From a virus (taxonomy: Duplodnaviria > Caudoviricetes), in IMG/VR virus record IMGVR_UViG_2926647115_000001: DNA of 64,000 nucleotides; one strand, given 5' to 3'. The first letter of the stretch is position 1. Each line of letters starts with the position of its first letter. The notes under the pieces are model-generated. The model was not told where the DNA came from, did not search any database, and saw only the letters and a list, made by a program, of their open reading frames with translations. A program made the translations under genes and the position numbers. Of this stretch, positions 3,680 to 17,263 are shown one piece after another.

Positions 3680-3997
3680 ATGACCACCACCGCAACCCCC
3701 ACGCCGAACGCTACGCGCGCTTCCCGCAACGGCTACTGGACCGACGAACGCCTCGCCATCTGGCGGCGGCTCACCCCGCAGCAGCGGGACTACGACCGCT
3801 TCCAGGGCTGGTACCCGCCCGGCCAGGGCACGTGCGAGACCGAAGGCGGCCGCCGCGCGATCGAGGAACGCGACGAAGCACGAGACGCCGCCACCGAGGA
3901 CGAGCTGCACGTCTGCACCTGCCACGTCAACCCGCCCTGCACCCACTGCGTGGAGTGCACCGACTGCCCGGAGGCGCGCAGTGATCAGCGCGACTGA
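3680..3997 (+). CDS. Hypothetical Cys-rich protein
   Basis: CTCHVNPPCTHC motif. Confidence 0.7.
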   Translation: MTTTATPTPNATRASRNGYWTDERLAIWRRLTPQQRDYDRFQGWYPPGQGTCETEGGRRAIEERDEARDAATEDELHVCTCHVNPPCTHCVECTDCPEARSDQRD

Positions 3998-4937
3998 CCT
4001 GTTCGGTGGTGGCGGCGGTGCATCCGAGGGGTTGCGCCAGGCCGGCCTGCATGTGGCGGTCGCCGCGAACCACCTGCCGATCGCGATCGCAACACACAAG
4101 CTCAACCACCCGGAGACGGAGCACCGCACCGAGAATCTGCTCGAGGTGGACTGGCGCACCTTCCCCTGGACCGAGGTGCTGTGGGCATCACCGTCGTGCG
4201 TGTGGCACGCCCGCTCCGGTGGCCGCAAACGCCCCCCGGCCGAGGTCGAGTTGAAGCGCGCCGACCCGGGAGCGATCGACCGGGCGACCGCGTTCGCCGT
4301 GATCGCGGCGGCCGAGGTGCACCGCTACCCCGTGATCGTGGTCGAGAACGTCACCGAGTTCCTGGCCTGGTCGCTGTACCGGTGGTGGCTGGATGGGCTC
4401 CGCGCGCTGGGCTACACGGTGGAAACGCTCGTGCTGGACGCCGCGGACTTCGGGCACGCGCAGAACCGGCCGCGGCTGTTCATCGTCGCCACCCGCGGTA
4501 TCAAGCTGGACCTCACTCTGCCGGACATCGCGCCGGTGACGGCCGCGGACATCCTCGACCCCGACCTGGGCCGCCCGGTCACCCGCCGCCTGTACGTGTC
4601 GGACCAGATCGAGCAGATCGACACCGAGGGCGTGACGCACCTGGTCACGTACCGGCGCAACGCGAAACCCCTGCGCGCGGACCGGCACCAGCTCGCCACC
4701 ATCACCGCCGGGGGCAATCACCACGCGATCGCCACGATCGTCGACGGCGTCCCGCACCACCGGATGCTGTCCAACCGGGAATGCGCACGTGCCCAGGGTT
4801 TCCCCGACACGTACCAGTTCCTCGGCAACAGCAAGGACGTGAAGAAGCTGATCGGGAACGCCGTCCCGGTCGGTATCGCCCGGTGGTTCGGCGAACGCGC
4901 CGCCGCCGCGCTTGACCCGTACGACCTGGCCGCGTGA
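3981..4937 (+). CDS. DNA cytosine-5 methyltransferase
   Basis: Motif I DLFGGGGG, IV ASPSC, VI ENV, VIII QNRPR, X IGNAVP. Confidence 0.93.
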   Translation: MISATDLFGGGGGASEGLRQAGLHVAVAANHLPIAIATHKLNHPETEHRTENLLEVDWRTFPWTEVLWASPSCVWHARSGGRKRPPAEVELKRADPGAIDRATAFAVIAAAEVHRYPVIVVENVTEFLAWSLYRWWLDGLRALGYTVETLVLDAADFGHAQNRPRLFIVATRGIKLDLTLPDIAPVTAADILDPDLGRPVTRRLYVSDQIEQIDTEGVTHLVTYRRNAKPLRADRHQLATITAGGNHHAIATIVDGVPHHRMLSNRECARAQGFPDTYQFLGNSKDVKKLIGNAVPVGIARWFGERAAAALDPYDLAA

Positions 4938-8906: not shown

Positions 8907-9253
8907 TGGACCCGCTGGGCTGGTTCATCGCGATCATGGTCGTGCTGTGGATCGCGGTGCTTGTGTGGGCGCTGTTCACCCGCGACCGCGGGAACAACGA
9001 GCCGTACGGGCCGACCGGCCCGGGCGAGTGGATGCTGGCCTCCCGCGATCCGGACACCGGGCTCGAGGTGTGGCACCGCGACGGCGTACCGTGGCTCGAC
9101 TCGCCGCTCCCGGCGATCGGGCACGAGTGCTGGCCGCAGACGCGCGGAATTGAGGGCCACGAGGAGACCGAGCGGTGCCCGTGCGGCGCGATCCGAATCG
9201 GCGGAGGCCGGTGGCTGGAGCGAAACACCCGCACCCCGGGACAGGAGTCGTGA
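8906..9253 (+). CDS. Membrane-anchored hypothetical protein
   Basis: N-terminal TM helix; ERCPCG. Confidence 0.75.
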   Translation: MDPLGWFIAIMVVLWIAVLVWALFTRDRGNNEPYGPTGPGEWMLASRDPDTGLEVWHRDGVPWLDSPLPAIGHECWPQTRGIEGHEETERCPCGAIRIGGGRWLERNTRTPGQES

Positions 9254-9978
9254 TGCGCGCTGTGACCTGGACCCCGCTGATCACCGGCACCGTGGGCTCC
9301 CACGCCTATGGGCTGGCCACCCCCACCTCCGACATGGACACGCTCGGCGTCGCCGCAGCCCCGACAGAGGCGTTCCACGGGCTGCACGCCCCGACCGGGA
9401 AGGCCGCCACCCAGGTCTCGACCGACCCGGACGTCGCTGTGCACGAGGCCGGCAAGTTCGTGTCCCTGTGCCTGTCGGCGAACCCGACCGTCACGGAGCT
9501 GCTGTGGCTGCCGGAGGACTGCTACCAGGAGGTGCACCCGCTCGGACGGGAGCTGATCGCGCTCCGCGGGTCGCTGCTCGGTGCCGAGCGGGTCCGGAAC
9601 GCGTACCTGGGGTATGCGACGCAGCAGTTCCGGCGGCTGCGTGACCGGGGCACGTCGTTCTCCTCGAACACCGCGAAGCGCACCGAGAAGCACGCCCGGC
9701 ACCTGCTGCGCCTGGTGCGCGCCGGCATGTCGCTGTACCTCGCCGGTGAGCTGCCGGTGCGGGTCGACGACCCGCAGGAGTACCACGACTTCGGCCGCAC
9801 CGTCGCCGAGGACGCGGAGCGTGGTCTCGCGCTCGCGGAGGCGACGTTGGCCGCGGCCGGGATGGCGATGGACTCCAAACCATCCGCGCTGCCGGACGAG
9901 CCCGACAAGCGGGCGGCGGAGGCGTGGCTCCTGCGCGTGCGGGCGCACTTCTTCCAGACCGCGGGGGTGGCGGCGTGA
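9253..9978 (+). CDS. Pol-beta superfamily nucleotidyltransferase (phage/YcgL type)
   Basis: VGSHAYGLATPTSDMD; NPTVTELLW; KHARHLLRL. Confidence 0.9.
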   Translation: MRAVTWTPLITGTVGSHAYGLATPTSDMDTLGVAAAPTEAFHGLHAPTGKAATQVSTDPDVAVHEAGKFVSLCLSANPTVTELLWLPEDCYQEVHPLGRELIALRGSLLGAERVRNAYLGYATQQFRRLRDRGTSFSSNTAKRTEKHARHLLRLVRAGMSLYLAGELPVRVDDPQEYHDFGRTVAEDAERGLALAEATLAAAGMAMDSKPSALPDEPDKRAAEAWLLRVRAHFFQTAGVAA

Positions 9979-10817: not shown

Positions 10818-11030
10818 CGTGTCGGCACCCCAGCCGCACGCCTGTAGGGAAGCGGCCCCCGCGCCGGTCCCCGGCCGGAGGAGCGCGCGCGGCGGCCGCT
10901 TGCCGTCCGGCCTCCCACGGCCCCTGGGACCAGCCAGGACTGGTAGGCGTGTCCCCAGCTTCGTCGCCTGCGCAGGGCGACCCTGTTTCCGGGTGTTGCG
11001 GCGGCTGCTGCGCCGGCCGCCGCACCGGAG

Positions 11031-11101
11031 AGGTGATGGCGGGAATCGAACCCGCGTGGACGGCTTTGCAGGCCGTTGCCTAGCCACTCGGCCACACCAC
11101 C
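11031..11101 (-). tRNA. tRNA-Cys(GCA), CCA not encoded
   Basis: GGTGGTG/CATCACC acceptor stem, TGGCCGAGTGG D arm, CTGCAAA anticodon loop, GGTTCGATTCC T arm, U discriminator. Confidence 0.95.
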
Positions 11102-14126: not shown

Positions 14127-14774
14127 TCAGCCGGCCGCGCCTGCTCCCTCGCGGCGCTCGCGGCGAGCCTGTCGTCGGGCCTCTAACCGGGCCGGGGCTT
14201 GGTAGACCTCCTCAAGCACCTCGCCCATGAGCTCGAGAATCTCGGCCGACTCTTCCTCGAATACCGGCTCGACGAAATCTCCGTGGGCCATGTCGTTGCC
14301 CAAGAACCGAACCTCGTGGGCCTGTTCCCGCACCAACTCGCGAATGAGACCGCGGGTGTGCAGCTCGTTGATCTTGCTGTCCAGATTCCCGCCGGTAATG
14401 CCCTTGTCCTTTGCGGTCGCCTCGATCACGGAGCGGGCGAGCAACACCGCGGATCGGAACGATCCGATGCTGTGGTCGGCGTGAGCCTCTGAGGCGGCGC
14501 TTGCGATATGGTCCGGAACGTCCGGAAAGTCGCGGCCGATCGGGTGTCTCGGTAGCCAGATGACCGGGATCTCTCCGCGATGCATCTGCGCGAGAATCGA
14601 CCTACCGACACCGGAGTTTGTGAACTTTTGTGCCGTCCGCGCGATGGAGAGCTGGCCGCATTCGTCGCAGGCAAAGACCGCACTCCACGTATCGTCTACA
14701 GCCCGCCTTGCCTCATCGCCGCGAGGCGTCTGGTGGGCCGAAACGCCGCAATGCCAACACACCCGGTTTGCCAT
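14127..14774 (-). CDS. DUF4145 (HEPN-like) protein with N-terminal Zn ribbon
   Basis: CWHC..CDEC; ARSVIEA..L.SKI..L..RFLGNDMAH. Confidence 0.85.
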   Translation of the reverse strand: MANRVCWHCGVSAHQTPRGDEARRAVDDTWSAVFACDECGQLSIARTAQKFTNSGVGRSILAQMHRGEIPVIWLPRHPIGRDFPDVPDHIASAASEAHADHSIGSFRSAVLLARSVIEATAKDKGITGGNLDSKINELHTRGLIRELVREQAHEVRFLGNDMAHGDFVEPVFEEESAEILELMGEVLEEVYQAPARLEARRQARRERREGAGAAG

Positions 14775-14843
14775 CCGCAGGATCTTAGCGGGGACGTACG
14801 ACGGTGCCCGCATGCCGGACCCACTGCGCGGGCAGGACTAGAC

Positions 14844-14898
14844 ACGAGAAAGCCCCAGCGGGGTTGGTATCCATCCCGGCCCGCTGGGGCTCTCTCGT
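14844..14898 (-). terminator. Hairpin terminator
   Basis: About 19-bp inverted repeat ACGAGAAAGCCCCAGCGGG / CCCGCTGGGGCTCTCTCGT. Confidence 0.8.
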
Positions 14899-14909
14899 CG
14901 TCAATGGCT

Positions 14910-14974
14910 GGAGGAGTGGAGAGGGCTACAGTCACATCCGAAGTGTTTGAGAAGGAAGTCCTCTCGATGCCTCC
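14910..14974 (-). ncRNA. Candidate small structured RNA (Y-RNA-like architecture) linked to the TerD-family gene
   Basis: TACAAT 7 nt upstream; GGAGG/CCUCC and GAGAGG/CCUCUC stems, pyrimidine-rich loop, cUUCGg hairpin; terminator downstream. Confidence 0.55.
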
Positions 14975-15001
14975 GTGAACCATTGTAGCGCAACAGTTTC
15001 G

Positions 15002-17155
15002 CTACTCCGGGATCAGGTCCGCCAGGTTGTCCACCGTGATCACCCGCGTCGACTCAGGCAGCCCCTCCGGCCGCTCCCAGCCGATGAAGGTGACCGGGCC
15101 GTCGACGTGCTGCCCGTGCCACGGCTCCACCTTGGAGTGCTGGCCGGCCATGCCGATCAGGTAGCCGACGTTCAGGTACTCGCGGTCGATGATGCCGCGC
15201 GCCAGCGTCCCGGCGGTGGCCCTGGTGTGCTCAACCTGGTTGAGCTGGGCCCGGCCGCTGGTGTAGAGGTGCAGCCACTTGGCCCACCACGCGCCGTCGT
15301 CGTCGCGCAGGAACAGCACTGGGAACGCGACCCGGCCGCGGCCGGTCAGGTCGGACTTCGCGCGCACTGTGCGGGGCTCGTAGGGCTGGCCCTTCTGGGC
15401 GCGGTCGCGGGTCATGTACCCGAAGAACGCCTCCGCGGCCTTGATGAACGACTCCCCGGCGAACAGGAGCACCTGCGGCATCACGTACCGGGCGTCGACG
15501 CTGCCGTGGGGGACGTCGATGATCTCGGTGGCGCCGTCGCGGGCGTCGGTGATGTCGCCGGAGTGCACGATCTCCCCGTGCCGAAGCGCGGTGTAGGAGA
15601 CGTGCCCGGCCTCGCGGAACCCGTCGGCGTACAGCTGCACGGACAGGTCGTAGTCGGTGCGGCGCTCGTTCTGCCGCCAGTGGATGAAGAACGACAGCAC
15701 GTCCCCGCTGATGCGCTGCATGGAGCCGCGGGGCACGACGCCCATGCCGCGTGGGGCGGTCTTGCCGGACAGTGGGAGCGCGATCCGCAGGAAATCGGGG
15801 TCGAACAGCACGGTGCCCTCCACCCGGTCGGCGAGGCGGGCGGTGATCTCGCTGTCGATGGCGGCGCACAGCTCGTGCACGAGGCCGTGCGGCAGCGGCA
15901 GGCGGTTGTCCTCGGTGACCCAGGCCTTGCCCTTGCGGTTGGTGAACACCCGGGGCGTGCCGTCGCGCTCCGCGACCCGGTTGATCAGGTGCTCACGCAC
16001 CGACAGCAGCACCCGCGCCGACACCTTGCCGCGGACGGCGTGCACGGCGTCCAGGATCGCGCTGTGCGCGTCCGGCCCCGCCGCGCGGGCAACCCGGTCC
16101 AGGGAGCGCATCAACAGCCCCGGCGCGGCCTGCAGGACCCGCACGGCGCCTGGCACGTCCCCGACGCCGAGGGCGGCGTCGACGCGGGCAGCGATCGACG
16201 GCACGTAGTCATCGCCGCGAGCGACGGTGAACACCCGGGCGGCGTTTGGGTACCGGTCCGCGTAGTCCTCGGCGTGGAGCCCGCCGGCCAGCCGCACCCA
16301 GGCGCGGGCGTGGGCCTTGACGTCGCCCAGCTTGGCGGGATTGGCGGCGACCGTGTCGAGCGCGGCGAGCAGCGCGCGCCGGTCTTTCCGGGACAGGCCG
16401 CGGAACCGAGTCGCGGTCTCGAGCGTGACGTCCCCGCCGGACAGCGCCGCGGCGAGCCGGAGCACGTCGGTCACGGTGTCCACCAGCAGCGGCCGGTGGT
16501 GGGCGAACCGCACCCGGTTGATGACCGCGCGGTTCTCGCGCGCGGGGATCGTGTCGGGCTGGGTGTTGTCGGCGCAGAACACGGCCAGGGTCTCGAACAG
16601 GGCGCGGTCGTGCTCCGGCAGCGGCACCGTGGAGGAGGCGAGCTGCAGGTAGAGGCGGTGGGCTTCATCCTGCAACGTGCCGCCGAGGTGCAGCACCGTG
16701 ACCCTGTCGCCCGCGGCGGCGATCAGCTCTTCGTGGGCGGCCAGCATCTCGTAGTAGGTGTGCTGGTACCGGCCGTACGTGGGCAGGTCCACCAGGTTGA
16801 TGGTGCCGAAGCTGGACAGCGTCACCTGCCCGTCGGCGGGGGCGAGCTGGCCGAGGCACTGGAGCCAGAACGTGATGGTGTCCGGCACGCCCTGCGGGAA
16901 CCGCTTGAAGTACACGTTGTGCTGGACGTGGTCGCCGGCCAGTTCGCGCACGGCGCCGAGCACCGACACGCCGAGGTCGATCACCACGCCCGGGGACATG
17001 GCGGACAGCTGCCGCAGCAGCTCGCCGGACAGCTTGAATCCGACGTCCATGAGGGCGGCGTCGAGCTGGCGGGCGACGGTGGCGCCGTCTCCGGAGGGGC
17101 CGGTCGGGATCGGCACCCGCTTGGTGCGCTGCACGAGCAGCGTGGTCAACGACAT
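15002..17155 (-). CDS. Large TerD-domain family protein (helical N-terminal region plus TerD-like C-terminus)
   Basis: HNVYFKRFPQGVPD; TVTDVLRLAAALSGGD; FFIHW..DYDLS..HSGDITDA..GATEIIDV. Confidence 0.85.
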   Translation of the reverse strand: MSLTTLLVQRTKRVPIPTGPSGDGATVARQLDAALMDVGFKLSGELLRQLSAMSPGVVIDLGVSVLGAVRELAGDHVQHNVYFKRFPQGVPDTITFWLQCLGQLAPADGQVTLSSFGTINLVDLPTYGRYQHTYYEMLAAHEELIAAAGDRVTVLHLGGTLQDEAHRLYLQLASSTVPLPEHDRALFETLAVFCADNTQPDTIPARENRAVINRVRFAHHRPLLVDTVTDVLRLAAALSGGDVTLETATRFRGLSRKDRRALLAALDTVAANPAKLGDVKAHARAWVRLAGGLHAEDYADRYPNAARVFTVARGDDYVPSIAARVDAALGVGDVPGAVRVLQAAPGLLMRSLDRVARAAGPDAHSAILDAVHAVRGKVSARVLLSVREHLINRVAERDGTPRVFTNRKGKAWVTEDNRLPLPHGLVHELCAAIDSEITARLADRVEGTVLFDPDFLRIALPLSGKTAPRGMGVVPRGSMQRISGDVLSFFIHWRQNERRTDYDLSVQLYADGFREAGHVSYTALRHGEIVHSGDITDARDGATEIIDVPHGSVDARYVMPQVLLFAGESFIKAAEAFFGYMTRDRAQKGQPYEPRTVRAKSDLTGRGRVAFPVLFLRDDDGAWWAKWLHLYTSGRAQLNQVEHTRATAGTLARGIIDREYLNVGYLIGMAGQHSKVEPWHGQHVDGPVTFIGWERPEGLPESTRVITVDNLADLIPE

Positions 17156-17263
17156 GTGGTTCCCCCTAGCTGTTGCGGTTGATCGTGCCATTCCCGGCGG
17201 GGCTGGCCGAAACGGTTATGCGTGGGCGGTGGTGTGCGCGTCCTCGCGGCGCAGGCTTCCGGG

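What the first reader, a model, noticed from the sequence alone, without database searches (positions are those of the whole stretch)
14844..17155. Large TerD-family protein followed by its own small structured RNA: candidate Ro60/Y-RNA-like ribonucleoprotein system
Seen: about 15 nt after the stop of the 717-aa gene is a near-consensus -10 box (TACAAT, minus strand 14987-14982). Seven nt later a 65-nt non-coding segment starts whose ends pair (GGAGG 14974-70 with CCUCC 14914-10; internal loop; GAGAGG with CCUCUC). It encloses a pyrimidine-rich ACUUCCUUCUC strand and an ACAC-UUCG-G(A)UGU hairpin; the cUUCGg tetraloop reads correctly only on the gene's strand. A long terminator follows. Established: bacterial Y RNAs lie next to their Ro60/TROVE gene, pair 5' with 3' through a bulged stem and act in RNA repair/decay. 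Inference: the long helical N-terminal region (including PGLLMRSLD, loosely like TROVE's ALLRNL) plus TerD domain forms a Ro-like scaffold for this RNA. I do not know of such a pairing being characterised for this family. The unit is the end of a family A (early) operon.
Basis: partly seen in the sequence, partly recalled or inferred. Interest (0 to 1): 0.85.

Follow-up and report, generated by a model that had tools for sequence, protein, structure and literature searches.

The report
Ro60-like TerD protein with partner RNA
A small folded RNA with its own promoter sits just after a 717-residue helical+TerD protein gene in a prophage, and the same RNA-protein gene pair recurs in many actinobacteria, a Chloroflexi genome and distant phages, so it is probably an undescribed RNA-protein particle built like Ro60 with its Y RNAs.

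Summary
The -10 box, the 65-nt element and the terminator are all there.

On its own the 70-nt core does not fold better than shuffled sequence (z -1.5). The case is comparative:
- A covariance model built from 34 copies finds the element next to every full-length homolog examined (40 loci, 52 copies). 96% of cells are paired and 11 of 17 pairs show compensatory changes.
- It occurs once in the window's own genome.
- In an even sample of 151 genomes of the phylum, RNA and protein occur in the same two genomes only.
- Among 80 viral contigs fetched with a loose 16-nt pattern, 16 of 18 model-positive loci carry the protein. Only 1 of 62 model-negative loci does.
- 40 of 44 first or isolated copies have a TAnnnT box 5-9 nt upstream (background 1%).

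In the predicted structure the C-terminal domain has the TerD fold (Z 15.4). The best match for the N-terminal helical domain outside its own family is Ro60/TROVE, both in the PDB (Z 8.8, 225 residues) and among viral models. Sequence profiles show no TROVE signal.

Neither RNA-protein binding nor expression has been shown. I found no Rfam family and no paper describing this pair. This scan has reported the same system on other DNA.

The parts
15002..17155 (-). Gene for the 717-aa protein (an upstream in-frame ATG at 17191 would give 729 aa). Domains: N-terminal alpha/beta cap; a highly conserved His/Tyr-rich segment modelled with low confidence (residues 76-133); an alpha-helical repeat domain (about 134-394); a beta-hairpin plus long helix (401-444); a TerD-fold beta-sandwich (about 479-650); a small C-terminal alpha/beta tail.
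   Evidence: ORF. GGGGGAA ribosome-binding site before 17155. More than 2200 homologs of about 720 aa. AlphaFold2 model: pLDDT 84.8, pTM 0.81. TerD fold: Z 15.4 and Foldseek probability 1.0. Ro60 is the top hit for the N-domain: Z 8.8 over 225 aligned residues.
14982..14987 (-). -10 promoter box TACAAT for the RNA gene, 7 nt before the first G of stem P1. There is no recognisable -35 box.
   Evidence: Sequence. The same box is present in the same-genus relative G022. 40 of 44 first or isolated copies have TAnnnT 5-9 nt upstream against a 1% background, and no downstream tandem copy has one. The Chloroflexia copy has a full TTGACA-17-TATAGT promoter. The simple sigma-70 scan finds nothing here because it requires a -35 box.
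14907..14976 (-). Core of the small RNA (covariance-model match). The conserved 'handle' is P1 + internal loop + P2 + the single strand CUUCCUUCU + UAG.
   Evidence: Covariance model R1: 42.1 bits, E 1.9e-7 in the loci search and 2.9e-6 against the whole genome, where it is the only match.
14970..14974 (-). P1 5' strand, GGAGG. The family consensus is GGCGAGG.
   Evidence: Helix 1 is 95.9% paired, and 4 of its 7 pairs show compensatory changes.
14957..14966 (-). P2 5' strand. It ends in the invariant C-U that pairs with the invariant A-G of UAG.
   Evidence: In helix 2, 7 of 10 pairs show compensatory changes.
14950..14958 (-). CUUCCUUCU: its first two bases close P2 and the rest is single-stranded. 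It is invariant in all 34 seed sequences and is kept in phage copies from 27% to 67% GC.
14930..14948 (-). Variable apical arm. Here it is a short hairpin, ACAC-UUCG-G(A)UGU. The same bases can also be read as a CAC/GUG stem with a 7-nt loop UUCGGAU that is close to a tRNA T-loop.
   Evidence: The arm differs in sequence and length between copies (20-55 nt). 7 of 52 copies carry a GGUUCGAnUCC T-arm look-alike.
14919..14928 (-). Invariant UAG and the P2 3' strand.
14910..14914 (-). P1 3' strand, CCUCC, preceded by the 3' side of the internal loop (CACU, 14918-14915).
14844..14898 (-). Long GC-rich hairpin, the probable intrinsic terminator of the RNA gene and of the protein gene. The primary transcript would be about 130 nt.
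   Evidence: Fold. Strong hairpins follow the last copy in most loci, with different sequences. It is not called by the U-tract-based scan.

Best explanation
The gene at 15002-17155(-) and the small-RNA gene immediately after it form one two-part module, which here sits in a prophage.

The RNA is transcribed from its own -10 promoter. It starts at or next to the first G of P1 (14974-14976) and ends at the hairpin near 14844.

Its conserved 'handle' is the proposed docking site for the arginine-rich helical-repeat domain of the protein. The handle consists of P1, a 3x4-nt internal loop, P2, the invariant strand CUUCCUUCU and UAG. The resulting particle would follow the plan of Ro60 with Y RNA. 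The apical arm varies: a simple hairpin here, and a tRNA T-arm look-alike or several hairpins elsewhere. It would be the exchangeable adaptor or gate that brings in, or mimics, other RNAs or RNA-processing enzymes. A TerD beta-sandwich stands where Ro60 has its vWA domain, possibly as a Ca2+ or small-ligand-sensing or assembly module.

Shown: the RNA gene, its structure, its promoter, its strict linkage to the protein, and the TerD fold.

Inferred: direct binding, which surface binds the RNA, kinship with Ro60, and a role in RNA surveillance or repair or in phage-host conflict.
For: 1. The RNA is conserved. The model finds 52 copies in all 40 loci with a full-length homolog, including a Chloroflexia MAG that was not in the seed.
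2. Covariation: 96.1% of cells paired against 45-57% for slid partners; 11 of 17 pairs and 112 cells with changes on both sides; 0 of 500 shuffles reach any measure.
3. Linkage:
- There is one copy in the 7.3-Mb genome.
- In 151 evenly drawn genomes of the phylum, RNA and protein occur in the same two genomes. In G079 the RNA lies 25 nt after the gene.
- In the genus, the three genomes with the full-length protein (G000, G018, G022) all have the RNA.
- In viral contigs, 16 of 18 model-positive loci have the protein beside the RNA on the same strand, against 1 of 62 chance pattern hits.
- Weaker model matches (E 0.002 to 0.027) lie next to 23-31% identical homologs in Xanthomonas phage XacN1, Rhodobacter phage RcXuper, Rhodococcus phage Weasels2 and a gut phage scaffold.
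4. No other protein gene is conserved around the pair, so the pair itself is the unit.
5. The RNA lies downstream in some loci and upstream in others, in arrays of 1-5 copies with one promoter per array. It is therefore a gene, not a UTR.
6. The protein has at least 15 invariant arginines in the helical domain.
7. Ro60/TROVE is the first structural hit outside the family in the PDB and in BFVD.
8. RlaP 'RNA repair pathway' nucleotidyltransferases (PF10127) lie within about 0.5-6 kb in the window, XacN1 and RcXuper, with a tblastn homolog in one viral contig.
Against: - No experiment or RNA-seq shows the transcript or the complex.
- There is no sequence similarity to TROVE: Pfam gives none and hhalign gives probability 0.2%.
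- The structural scores are in the range that helical repeats can reach by chance. Z is 8.8 against 7.9 for the next unrelated row, and Foldseek against the PDB finds nothing at E <= 0.001 for the N-domain.
- Language-model neighbours include no TROVE cluster.
- Rfam Y RNA and YrlA models do not match.
- The window's own core fold is not better than shuffles.
- Strict co-occurrence proves a functional link, not physical binding.
Confidence: 0.6

Rival explanations
1. The RNA is a trans-acting regulatory sRNA. Its invariant pyrimidine strand CUUCCUUCU pairs with purine-rich sites such as Shine-Dalgarno-like AGAAGGAAG, or mimics the 16S rRNA 3' tail. It travels with the protein gene because both serve one pathway, but the protein does not bind it.
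For: The 9-nt strand is invariant from 27% to 67% GC copies, as expected for a pairing or mimicry element. It resembles, without matching, the genome's own 16S tail, which reads ...CACCUCCUUUCU. It has its own promoter and terminator.
Against: The whole handle, both stems and the internal loop, is conserved, not only the strand. No conserved complementary site was found at the 5' ends of the partner genes. The 9-mer complement occurs 29 times in the genome, about the chance level, with no obvious conserved target. Strict adjacency across phyla and phages, with no other conserved gene, is more typical of a protein-RNA pair.
Confidence: 0.15
2. The RNA is a dedicated inhibitor or regulator of the protein, in the manner of type III toxin-antitoxin pairs such as ToxI/ToxN. 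An array of small RNAs next to the gene would be processed into units that bind and silence a harmful protein until infection or stress.
For: Tandem arrays of 2-5 units with 7-20 nt spacers under one promoter occur beside the gene. The pair has a mobile, sporadic distribution in phages and prophages. There is a two-gene unit with no other partner.
Against: Most loci have a single copy. The units have variable arms rather than identical repeats. The protein shows no nuclease fold or toxin family and no PADLOC defence model. This rival still implies an RNA-protein particle, so it overlaps the main reading.
Confidence: 0.1
3. The element is a cis-acting part of the protein's mRNA, such as a 3' UTR stabiliser or tandem terminator, or the leader of the next gene. 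It would not be a separate RNA.
For: It lies 27 nt after the stop codon, is followed by a terminator, and lies upstream of the next gene at 14813.
Against: A positioned -10 box is present in 40 of 44 loci and a full promoter in the Chloroflexia copy. The element lies upstream of the gene in several phages. Arrays occur. The downstream gene is not conserved between loci.
Confidence: 0.03

Closest known systems
Ro60 (Rsr; TROVE HEAT-repeat ring + vWA domain) with its Y RNAs: Yrn1 of Deinococcus, YrlA/YrlB of Salmonella, mycobacteria and mycobacteriophages (Chen et al. 2014, PMC4201824), and the phage Ro60 of Thermus phage phiLo (PMC12135203; PDB 9l5y)
   Same: - One large helical-repeat protein gene has one or several small-RNA genes on the same strand right beside it, in bacteria and in phages.
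- The RNA's 5' and 3' ends pair through an internal loop, giving a conserved handle and a variable module.
- A subset of the RNAs carries a tRNA T-arm look-alike, as YrlA does.
- Most copies begin GGCGAGG, one base away from the GNCGAA(N)G motif proposed for Rsr binding in PMC4201824.
- Ro60 is the best structural match for the helical domain outside the family.
- RNA-repair-type genes lie nearby in some phages.
   Different: - No TROVE sequence signal.
- A TerD beta-sandwich stands in place of the vWA domain.
- The RNA does not match the Rfam Y_RNA or YrlA models.
- The RNA has its own invariant CUUCCUUCU...UAG signature.
- Most actinobacterial copies, including this one, have no tRNA-like domain.
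- The genomes of this genus that have the TerD-type protein showed no TROVE gene (small numbers).
TerD family (PF02342; tellurite-resistance / stress proteins, e.g. Klebsiella TerD 2kxt, SCO6318 2qz7)
   Same: Residues of about 483-652 superpose on TerD structures: Z 15.4 and 13.2, rmsd 2.7-3.2 A over 153-154 residues. A GDxT...DGxxE stretch is kept. From my own knowledge it resembles the TerD Ca2+-binding motif.
   Different: Classical TerD proteins are single-domain proteins of about 190 aa in ter operons, with no known RNA partner. Here the domain is the C-terminal quarter of a 717-aa protein and falls below Pfam thresholds.
MXAN_6230/SCO0854 family RING domain-containing proteins (NCBIfam NF041916)
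   Same: The same helical + TerD-like body. NF041916 aligns to residues 332-668 at E 7e-101. The Atlas structure search gives TM 0.77 over the N-domain.
   Different: The score is 339 bits against a cut-off of 600. There is no RING domain. Whether the RING family has an RNA partner was not determined, because no true member occurred in the 151 genomes sampled.
Type III toxin-antitoxin systems (ToxI RNA repeats with ToxN)
   Same: A small structured RNA, sometimes in tandem arrays, is encoded beside its partner protein on mobile elements.
   Different: There is no endoribonuclease fold. The units are not identical repeats, most loci have a single unit, and the order of RNA and gene varies.

Membership tests
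Ro60 / TROVE (PF05731) | Sequence match to the TROVE domain | tested here: not met
   Pfam gives no hit at E up to 1 for the protein or any of 56 homologs. hhalign of the family alignment against 7 actinobacterial TROVE proteins gives probability 0.2%.
Ro60 / TROVE (PF05731) | HEAT-repeat ring (doughnut) fold | tested here: inconclusive
   N-domain model: the top hit of 48,161 chains is phage phiLo Ro60, Z 8.8, rmsd 4.8 A, 225 residues. Xenopus Ro60 scores Z 7.0 over 278 residues. Full model: three Ro60 entries score Z 5.9-7.1 over 303-330 residues. BFVD: the first hit outside the family is a TROVE protein, E 0.026. These scores are within reach of unrelated helical repeats. Ring closure could not be inspected.
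Ro60 / TROVE (PF05731) | C-terminal vWA domain with a MIDAS site | tested here: not met
   The C-terminal domain is a TerD beta-sandwich.
Ro60 / TROVE (PF05731) | Cognate small-RNA gene(s) on the same strand within a few kb | tested here: met
Y RNA / YrlA (Rfam Y_RNA, YrlA) | Match to the Rfam covariance models | tested here: not met
   No Y RNA or YrlA match at E up to 10 in the window or in Streptomyces, Streptosporangium or same-genus copies.
Y RNA / YrlA (Rfam Y_RNA, YrlA) | 5' and 3' ends pair in a stem interrupted by a bulge or internal loop, which is the protein-binding handle | tested here: met
   P1, a 3x4 internal loop and P2, with covariation. That the protein binds there was not tested.
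Y RNA / YrlA (Rfam Y_RNA, YrlA) | tRNA-like domain (T and D arms) | tested here: not met
   The window's copy has only a short hairpin. 7 of 52 family copies have a T-arm look-alike. No D arm was identified, and neither ARAGORN nor Rfam tRNA models call these elements.
TerD (PF02342) | TerD beta-sandwich fold | tested here: met
   Z 15.4 (2qz7_B) and 13.2 (2kxt). Foldseek probability 1.0, TM 0.65-0.68 by target.
TerD (PF02342) | Pfam sequence match above threshold | tested here: not met
   No hit for this protein. 5 of 56 homologs hit, best E 1.6e-5.
NF041916 RING_SCO0854 | Score above the curated cut-off, and a RING domain | tested here: not met
   338.8 bits against a cut-off of 600. Only profile positions 388-731 are matched.
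Type III toxin-antitoxin | Protein is a sequence-specific endoribonuclease that processes the repeat RNA | tested here: inconclusive
   No nuclease family or fold was found among the matches. Activity was not tested.

The most novel reading that the evidence does not exclude
This is a second, widespread class of Ro/Y-type ribonucleoprotein that has gone unnoticed. A helical-ring + TerD protein always travels with its own 'handle' RNAs, whose invariant CUUCCUUCU strand and swappable apical cargo (hairpins, tRNA T-arm mimics) let phages and bacteria gate, decoy or repair RNAs during infection or stress. It is either a very old sister of Ro60 or an independent invention of the same plan.
Probability: 0.5. 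Interest if true: 0.9.

Novelty: new variant of a known kind. Interest (0 to 1): 0.8.

Why it matters
Ro60 with Y RNA is one of the few ribonucleoprotein types shared by bacteria, phages and animals, and its bacterial roles are still being worked out.

A second protein family, with thousands of members in soil actinomycetes and in phages of several hosts, is locked to its own structured RNA and shaped partly like Ro60. If confirmed, this would:
- widen that class of particles;
- give function to a large 'TerD family / hypothetical' protein group;
- add an RNA family absent from Rfam;
- offer a compact two-gene system (protein plus a roughly 70-nt RNA with a defined handle) that is easy to test by pull-down, gel shift and cryo-EM.

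Its frequent location in phages and prophages, sometimes beside tRNA genes and RlaP-type RNA-repair nucleotidyltransferases, points to a role in RNA-level conflict between phage and host.

Tried and rejected
- Rfam at gathering thresholds on the window and five loci: only a tRNA.
- Rfam at E up to 10 on four copies: only sub-threshold chance rows, such as ar14 at 22 bits, Scr4115 at 20 bits and miRNA hairpins on the terminator. Rejected as membership.
- megablast against the phage collection: no match.
- PDB by sequence profile: nothing.
- Foldseek against the PDB with the N-domain: no hit at E <= 0.001.
- ESM Atlas: only the protein's own family and the RING relatives, no TROVE cluster.
- PADLOC: the protein matches no defence model.
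- hhalign against TROVE: no signal.
- Conserved neighbours: none within +/-4 kb in 38 loci.
- Autoregulation by pairing of CUUCCUUCU with the gene's own ribosome-binding site: no conserved complement.
- Pairing with, or mimicry of, a stable RNA: the genome's 16S tail is similar but not identical, a guessed SRP-RNA pattern found nothing, and the 9-mer complement is at chance frequency. Left open.
- A small ORF through the element: the frames from ATG 14983 and GTG 14935 are not conserved and hit early stops in G022 (reading).
- Expression: no RNA holder was listed by the look-up of sequencing runs.
- The NF041916 RING relatives could not be examined for an RNA partner, because none was found in the 151 genomes sampled.
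- The actinobacterial model found no copy beside the homologs of Lactobacillus phage LpeD and Salicola phage SCTP-2 at E up to 1. This may be divergence rather than absence.
- Literature searches (TerD with TROVE, Y RNA or YrlA; SCO0854; Streptomyces with Rsr) found no description of the pair.
Full report
**Where the window lies.** The window is positions 555,629-619,628 of a single-contig, 7.3-Mb, 70% GC actinobacterial chromosome. It is not a free phage genome. The surrounding genes are phage-type, however: DNA methyltransferase, DnaB-like helicase, replication initiator, RecE-like exonuclease and a nucleotidyltransferase. The locus therefore sits in a prophage-like element, as other notes of this scan say for this genome.

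**The observation.**
- stop codon TAG at 15004-15002
- TACAAT at 14987-14982
- a 7-nt spacer
- GGAGG at 14974-14970, pairing with CCUCC at 14914-14910
- GAGAGG pairing with CCUCUC
- the CUUCCUUCU strand at 14958-14950
- a cUUCGg-type hairpin at 14946-14934
- a long GC-rich hairpin at about 14898-14844

RNAfold returns the proposed fold. The 70-nt core by itself is unremarkable, with z -1.54 and 17 of 200 shuffles folding as well. A single-sequence argument would therefore not carry the claim.

**Comparative evidence for the RNA.** The protein (P0001/P0002) has more than 2200 homologs of about 720 aa. The closest non-self one is 57% identical. I fetched 40 loci from reference genomes and two from the same genus.

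Directly after the stop codon of essentially every homolog lies the same element. It reads: a TAnnnT box; about 7 nt; GGCGAGG-CCAU-GAAGGGGC-UUCCUUCU; a variable arm; UAG-(G)UCCCUUC-GCUUU-CCUCGCC.

A MAFFT alignment of 34 copies gave an RNAalifold structure of two helices, and 8 of its 17 pairs showed double changes. The covariance model R1 built from it finds 52 copies. All 37 full-length loci, both same-genus loci and the window have at least one. This includes a Chloroflexia MAG that was not in the seed. Loci with only truncated or spurious protein matches have none.

On the 52 copies:
- 96.1% of cells are paired, against 45-57% when partners are slid by 1-3 columns.
- 11 of 17 pairs carry compensatory changes, in 112 cells.
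- None of 500 shuffles reaches any of the five measures.

The alignment was fitted to the model, which favours the structure. The size of the effect, and the independent MAFFT result, make the helices secure.

**It is a gene with its own promoter.** 40 of 44 first or isolated copies have TAnnnT ending 5-9 nt before P1. The background in the same loci is 1%. None of the downstream members of tandem arrays has such a box. The Chloroflexia copy, 250 nt from its gene, has a textbook TTGACA-17-TATAGT promoter ending just before P1. In G022 (protein 65% identical) the promoter and handle are conserved, while the apical hairpin and the terminator differ in sequence but keep their pairing. Strong hairpins follow the last copy in most loci.

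**Linkage to the protein.**
- The model hits the window's own genome once.
- In 151 genomes drawn evenly from the phylum, RNA and protein occur in exactly the same two genomes. In G079 the RNA lies 25 nt after the gene.
- No other protein-coding neighbour is conserved.
- A loose 16-nt pattern scanned over IMG/VR returned 80 loci, most of them chance matches as expected from the size of the collection. 18 are model-positive, and 16 of these have the protein next to the RNA on the same strand. Of the 62 model-negative loci only one has the protein, and there the pattern lies just upstream of the gene.
- In deposited phages: three strong model matches (E 1.6e-13 to 2.5e-9) follow the homolog in a 485-kb uncultured phage.
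- Weaker matches precede the gene in a gut phage scaffold (E 4.6e-5 and 0.006).
- One weak match (E 0.008) lies in the gap after Rhodococcus phage Weasels2 gp266.
- Weak matches also precede the 23-25% identical homologs of Xanthomonas phage XacN1 (E 0.002 and 0.027) and Rhodobacter phage RcXuper (E 0.007).

The RNA can therefore lie before or after the gene, singly or in arrays of up to five. That excludes a UTR or leader role.

**The variable arm.** Its length is 20-55 nt. In 7 of 52 copies it begins with a GGUUCGAnUCC hairpin, a tRNA T-arm look-alike. The window's arm is a short hairpin, and the cUUCGg reading is not a family feature.

**The protein.** Pfam finds nothing in it. NCBIfam aligns residues 332-668 to the SCO0854 RING family, below its cut-off. 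PHROGs gives one family of unknown function.

The AlphaFold2 model from 56 homologs is confident (pLDDT 84.8, pTM 0.81). Residues of about 483-652 have the TerD fold: Z 15.4 and 13.2 and Foldseek probability 1.0.

The helical part matches nothing strongly. Even so, Ro60/TROVE is consistently the first hit outside the protein's own family:
- Full model: phage phiLo Ro60 Z 7.1 over 306 residues, Deinococcus Rsr Z 6.2 over 303, Xenopus Ro60 Z 5.9 over 330.
- N-domain alone: phiLo Ro60 is rank 1 of 48,161 chains, with Z 8.8 over 225 residues. The other helical-repeat rows align only about 100 residues.
- BFVD: ranks 1-4 are family members from Campylobacter, Lactobacillus and other phages. Rank 5 is a TROVE-domain protein, E 0.026.

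These scores are within the range that helical repeats can reach by chance. Sequence profiles show no relation. I therefore rate homology with Ro60 as possible (about even odds) and membership of TROVE as not shown.

The helical domain has many invariant arginines. The most conserved stretch of the whole protein is GDHVxHNVYF...PDT..FW together with YGxYQH. It is modelled with low confidence. That would fit a site which becomes ordered on binding a partner.

**Context clues to function.** The window's genome has no TROVE gene. Eight of 24 genus relatives do, and none of them is a genome with the TerD-type protein (small numbers). RlaP nucleotidyltransferases (PF10127, 'RNA repair pathway') lie 5 kb away in the window, 1.4 kb away in XacN1 and 0.5 kb away in RcXuper. 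A tblastn homolog lies about 6 kb from the gene in one viral contig, though it was not checked against Pfam. tRNA genes flank the homologs in Weasels2 and RcXuper.

**Reading.** The best-supported reading is a self-contained, mobile two-gene module that makes an RNA-protein particle on the Ro60/Y-RNA plan. It has a conserved RNA handle for the protein and an exchangeable apical module. Binding itself is inferred.

**Novelty.** The RNA is absent from Rfam 15. I found no paper on the pairing. This scan has reached the same conclusion on other DNA. I did not count those notes as evidence. They gave me the pointer to Chen et al. 2014, whose YrlA features I compared here.

Noticed in passing
window 14127-14813 (-): The gene right after the RNA's terminator is a DUF4145 protein (PF13643, E 4.6e-13). 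It also matches phrog_1305 'DNA binding protein' and the PADLOC model PD-T7-4 (E 6.9e-9). It is a candidate single-gene anti-phage defence carried by the prophage.
   Followed up: partly
window 9175-9978 (+); L188 1-733; L190 4376-5365; L147 8827-9714: RlaP-type nucleotidyltransferases (PF10127, 'RNA repair pathway DNA polymerase beta family') lie near the TerD-type gene in the window, Xanthomonas phage XacN1 and Rhodobacter phage RcXuper. One IMG/VR contig (L147) has a tblastn homolog that was not checked against Pfam. None was found within +/-4 kb of the chromosomal actinobacterial loci.
   Followed up: partly
window 11030-11101 (-): tRNA-Cys (GCA) inside the prophage-like region, about 3.8 kb from the RNA gene. 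Phage homologs in Weasels2 and RcXuper also sit beside tRNA genes.
   Followed up: no
protein residues 76-133 (window about 16757-16930, -): The most conserved stretch of the family (GDHVxHNVYF..FP...PDT..FW and LPxYGxYQH, with three invariant His) is predicted with pLDDT below 50-60 in both models. It may be a metal, ligand or RNA site that orders only on binding.
   Followed up: no
L021 about 3920-4000: In Jidongwangia harbinensis a further CUUCCUUCU element, with a perfect GGGGUUCGAAUCCCC T-arm look-alike, lies just upstream of the gene, in addition to the downstream copy. The model did not report it at E 0.1.
   Followed up: no
L035 and L036 (Streptomyces sp. NBC_00873, both chromosome ends): Two identical truncated copies of the protein gene (matching 1.2 kb) lie at mirror positions near both chromosome ends, presumably in the terminal inverted repeats. 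The model finds no RNA copy in either locus.
   Followed up: no
L003-L030, about 60-20 nt before the start codon: Streptomyces loci share a conserved upstream motif (GAAAACCCGnaTGCG ... CTGGGATCAT) just before the protein's start. It may be a promoter or operator for the protein gene.
   Followed up: no
genus relatives G001-G024: Canonical TROVE (Ro60) genes are present in 8 of 24 genus relatives, but in none of the three genomes that carry the TerD-type protein (G000, G018, G022). This hints at mutual exclusion, on small numbers.
   Followed up: partly
L027 6296-6556; L028 6255-6762: Nocardiopsis genomes carry arrays of 3-5 handle RNAs with 0-10 nt spacers (one larger gap in L028) and different apical cargos, one of which is a GGGUUCGACUCCC T-arm look-alike. 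They are good material for studying processing and cargo diversity.
   Followed up: partly
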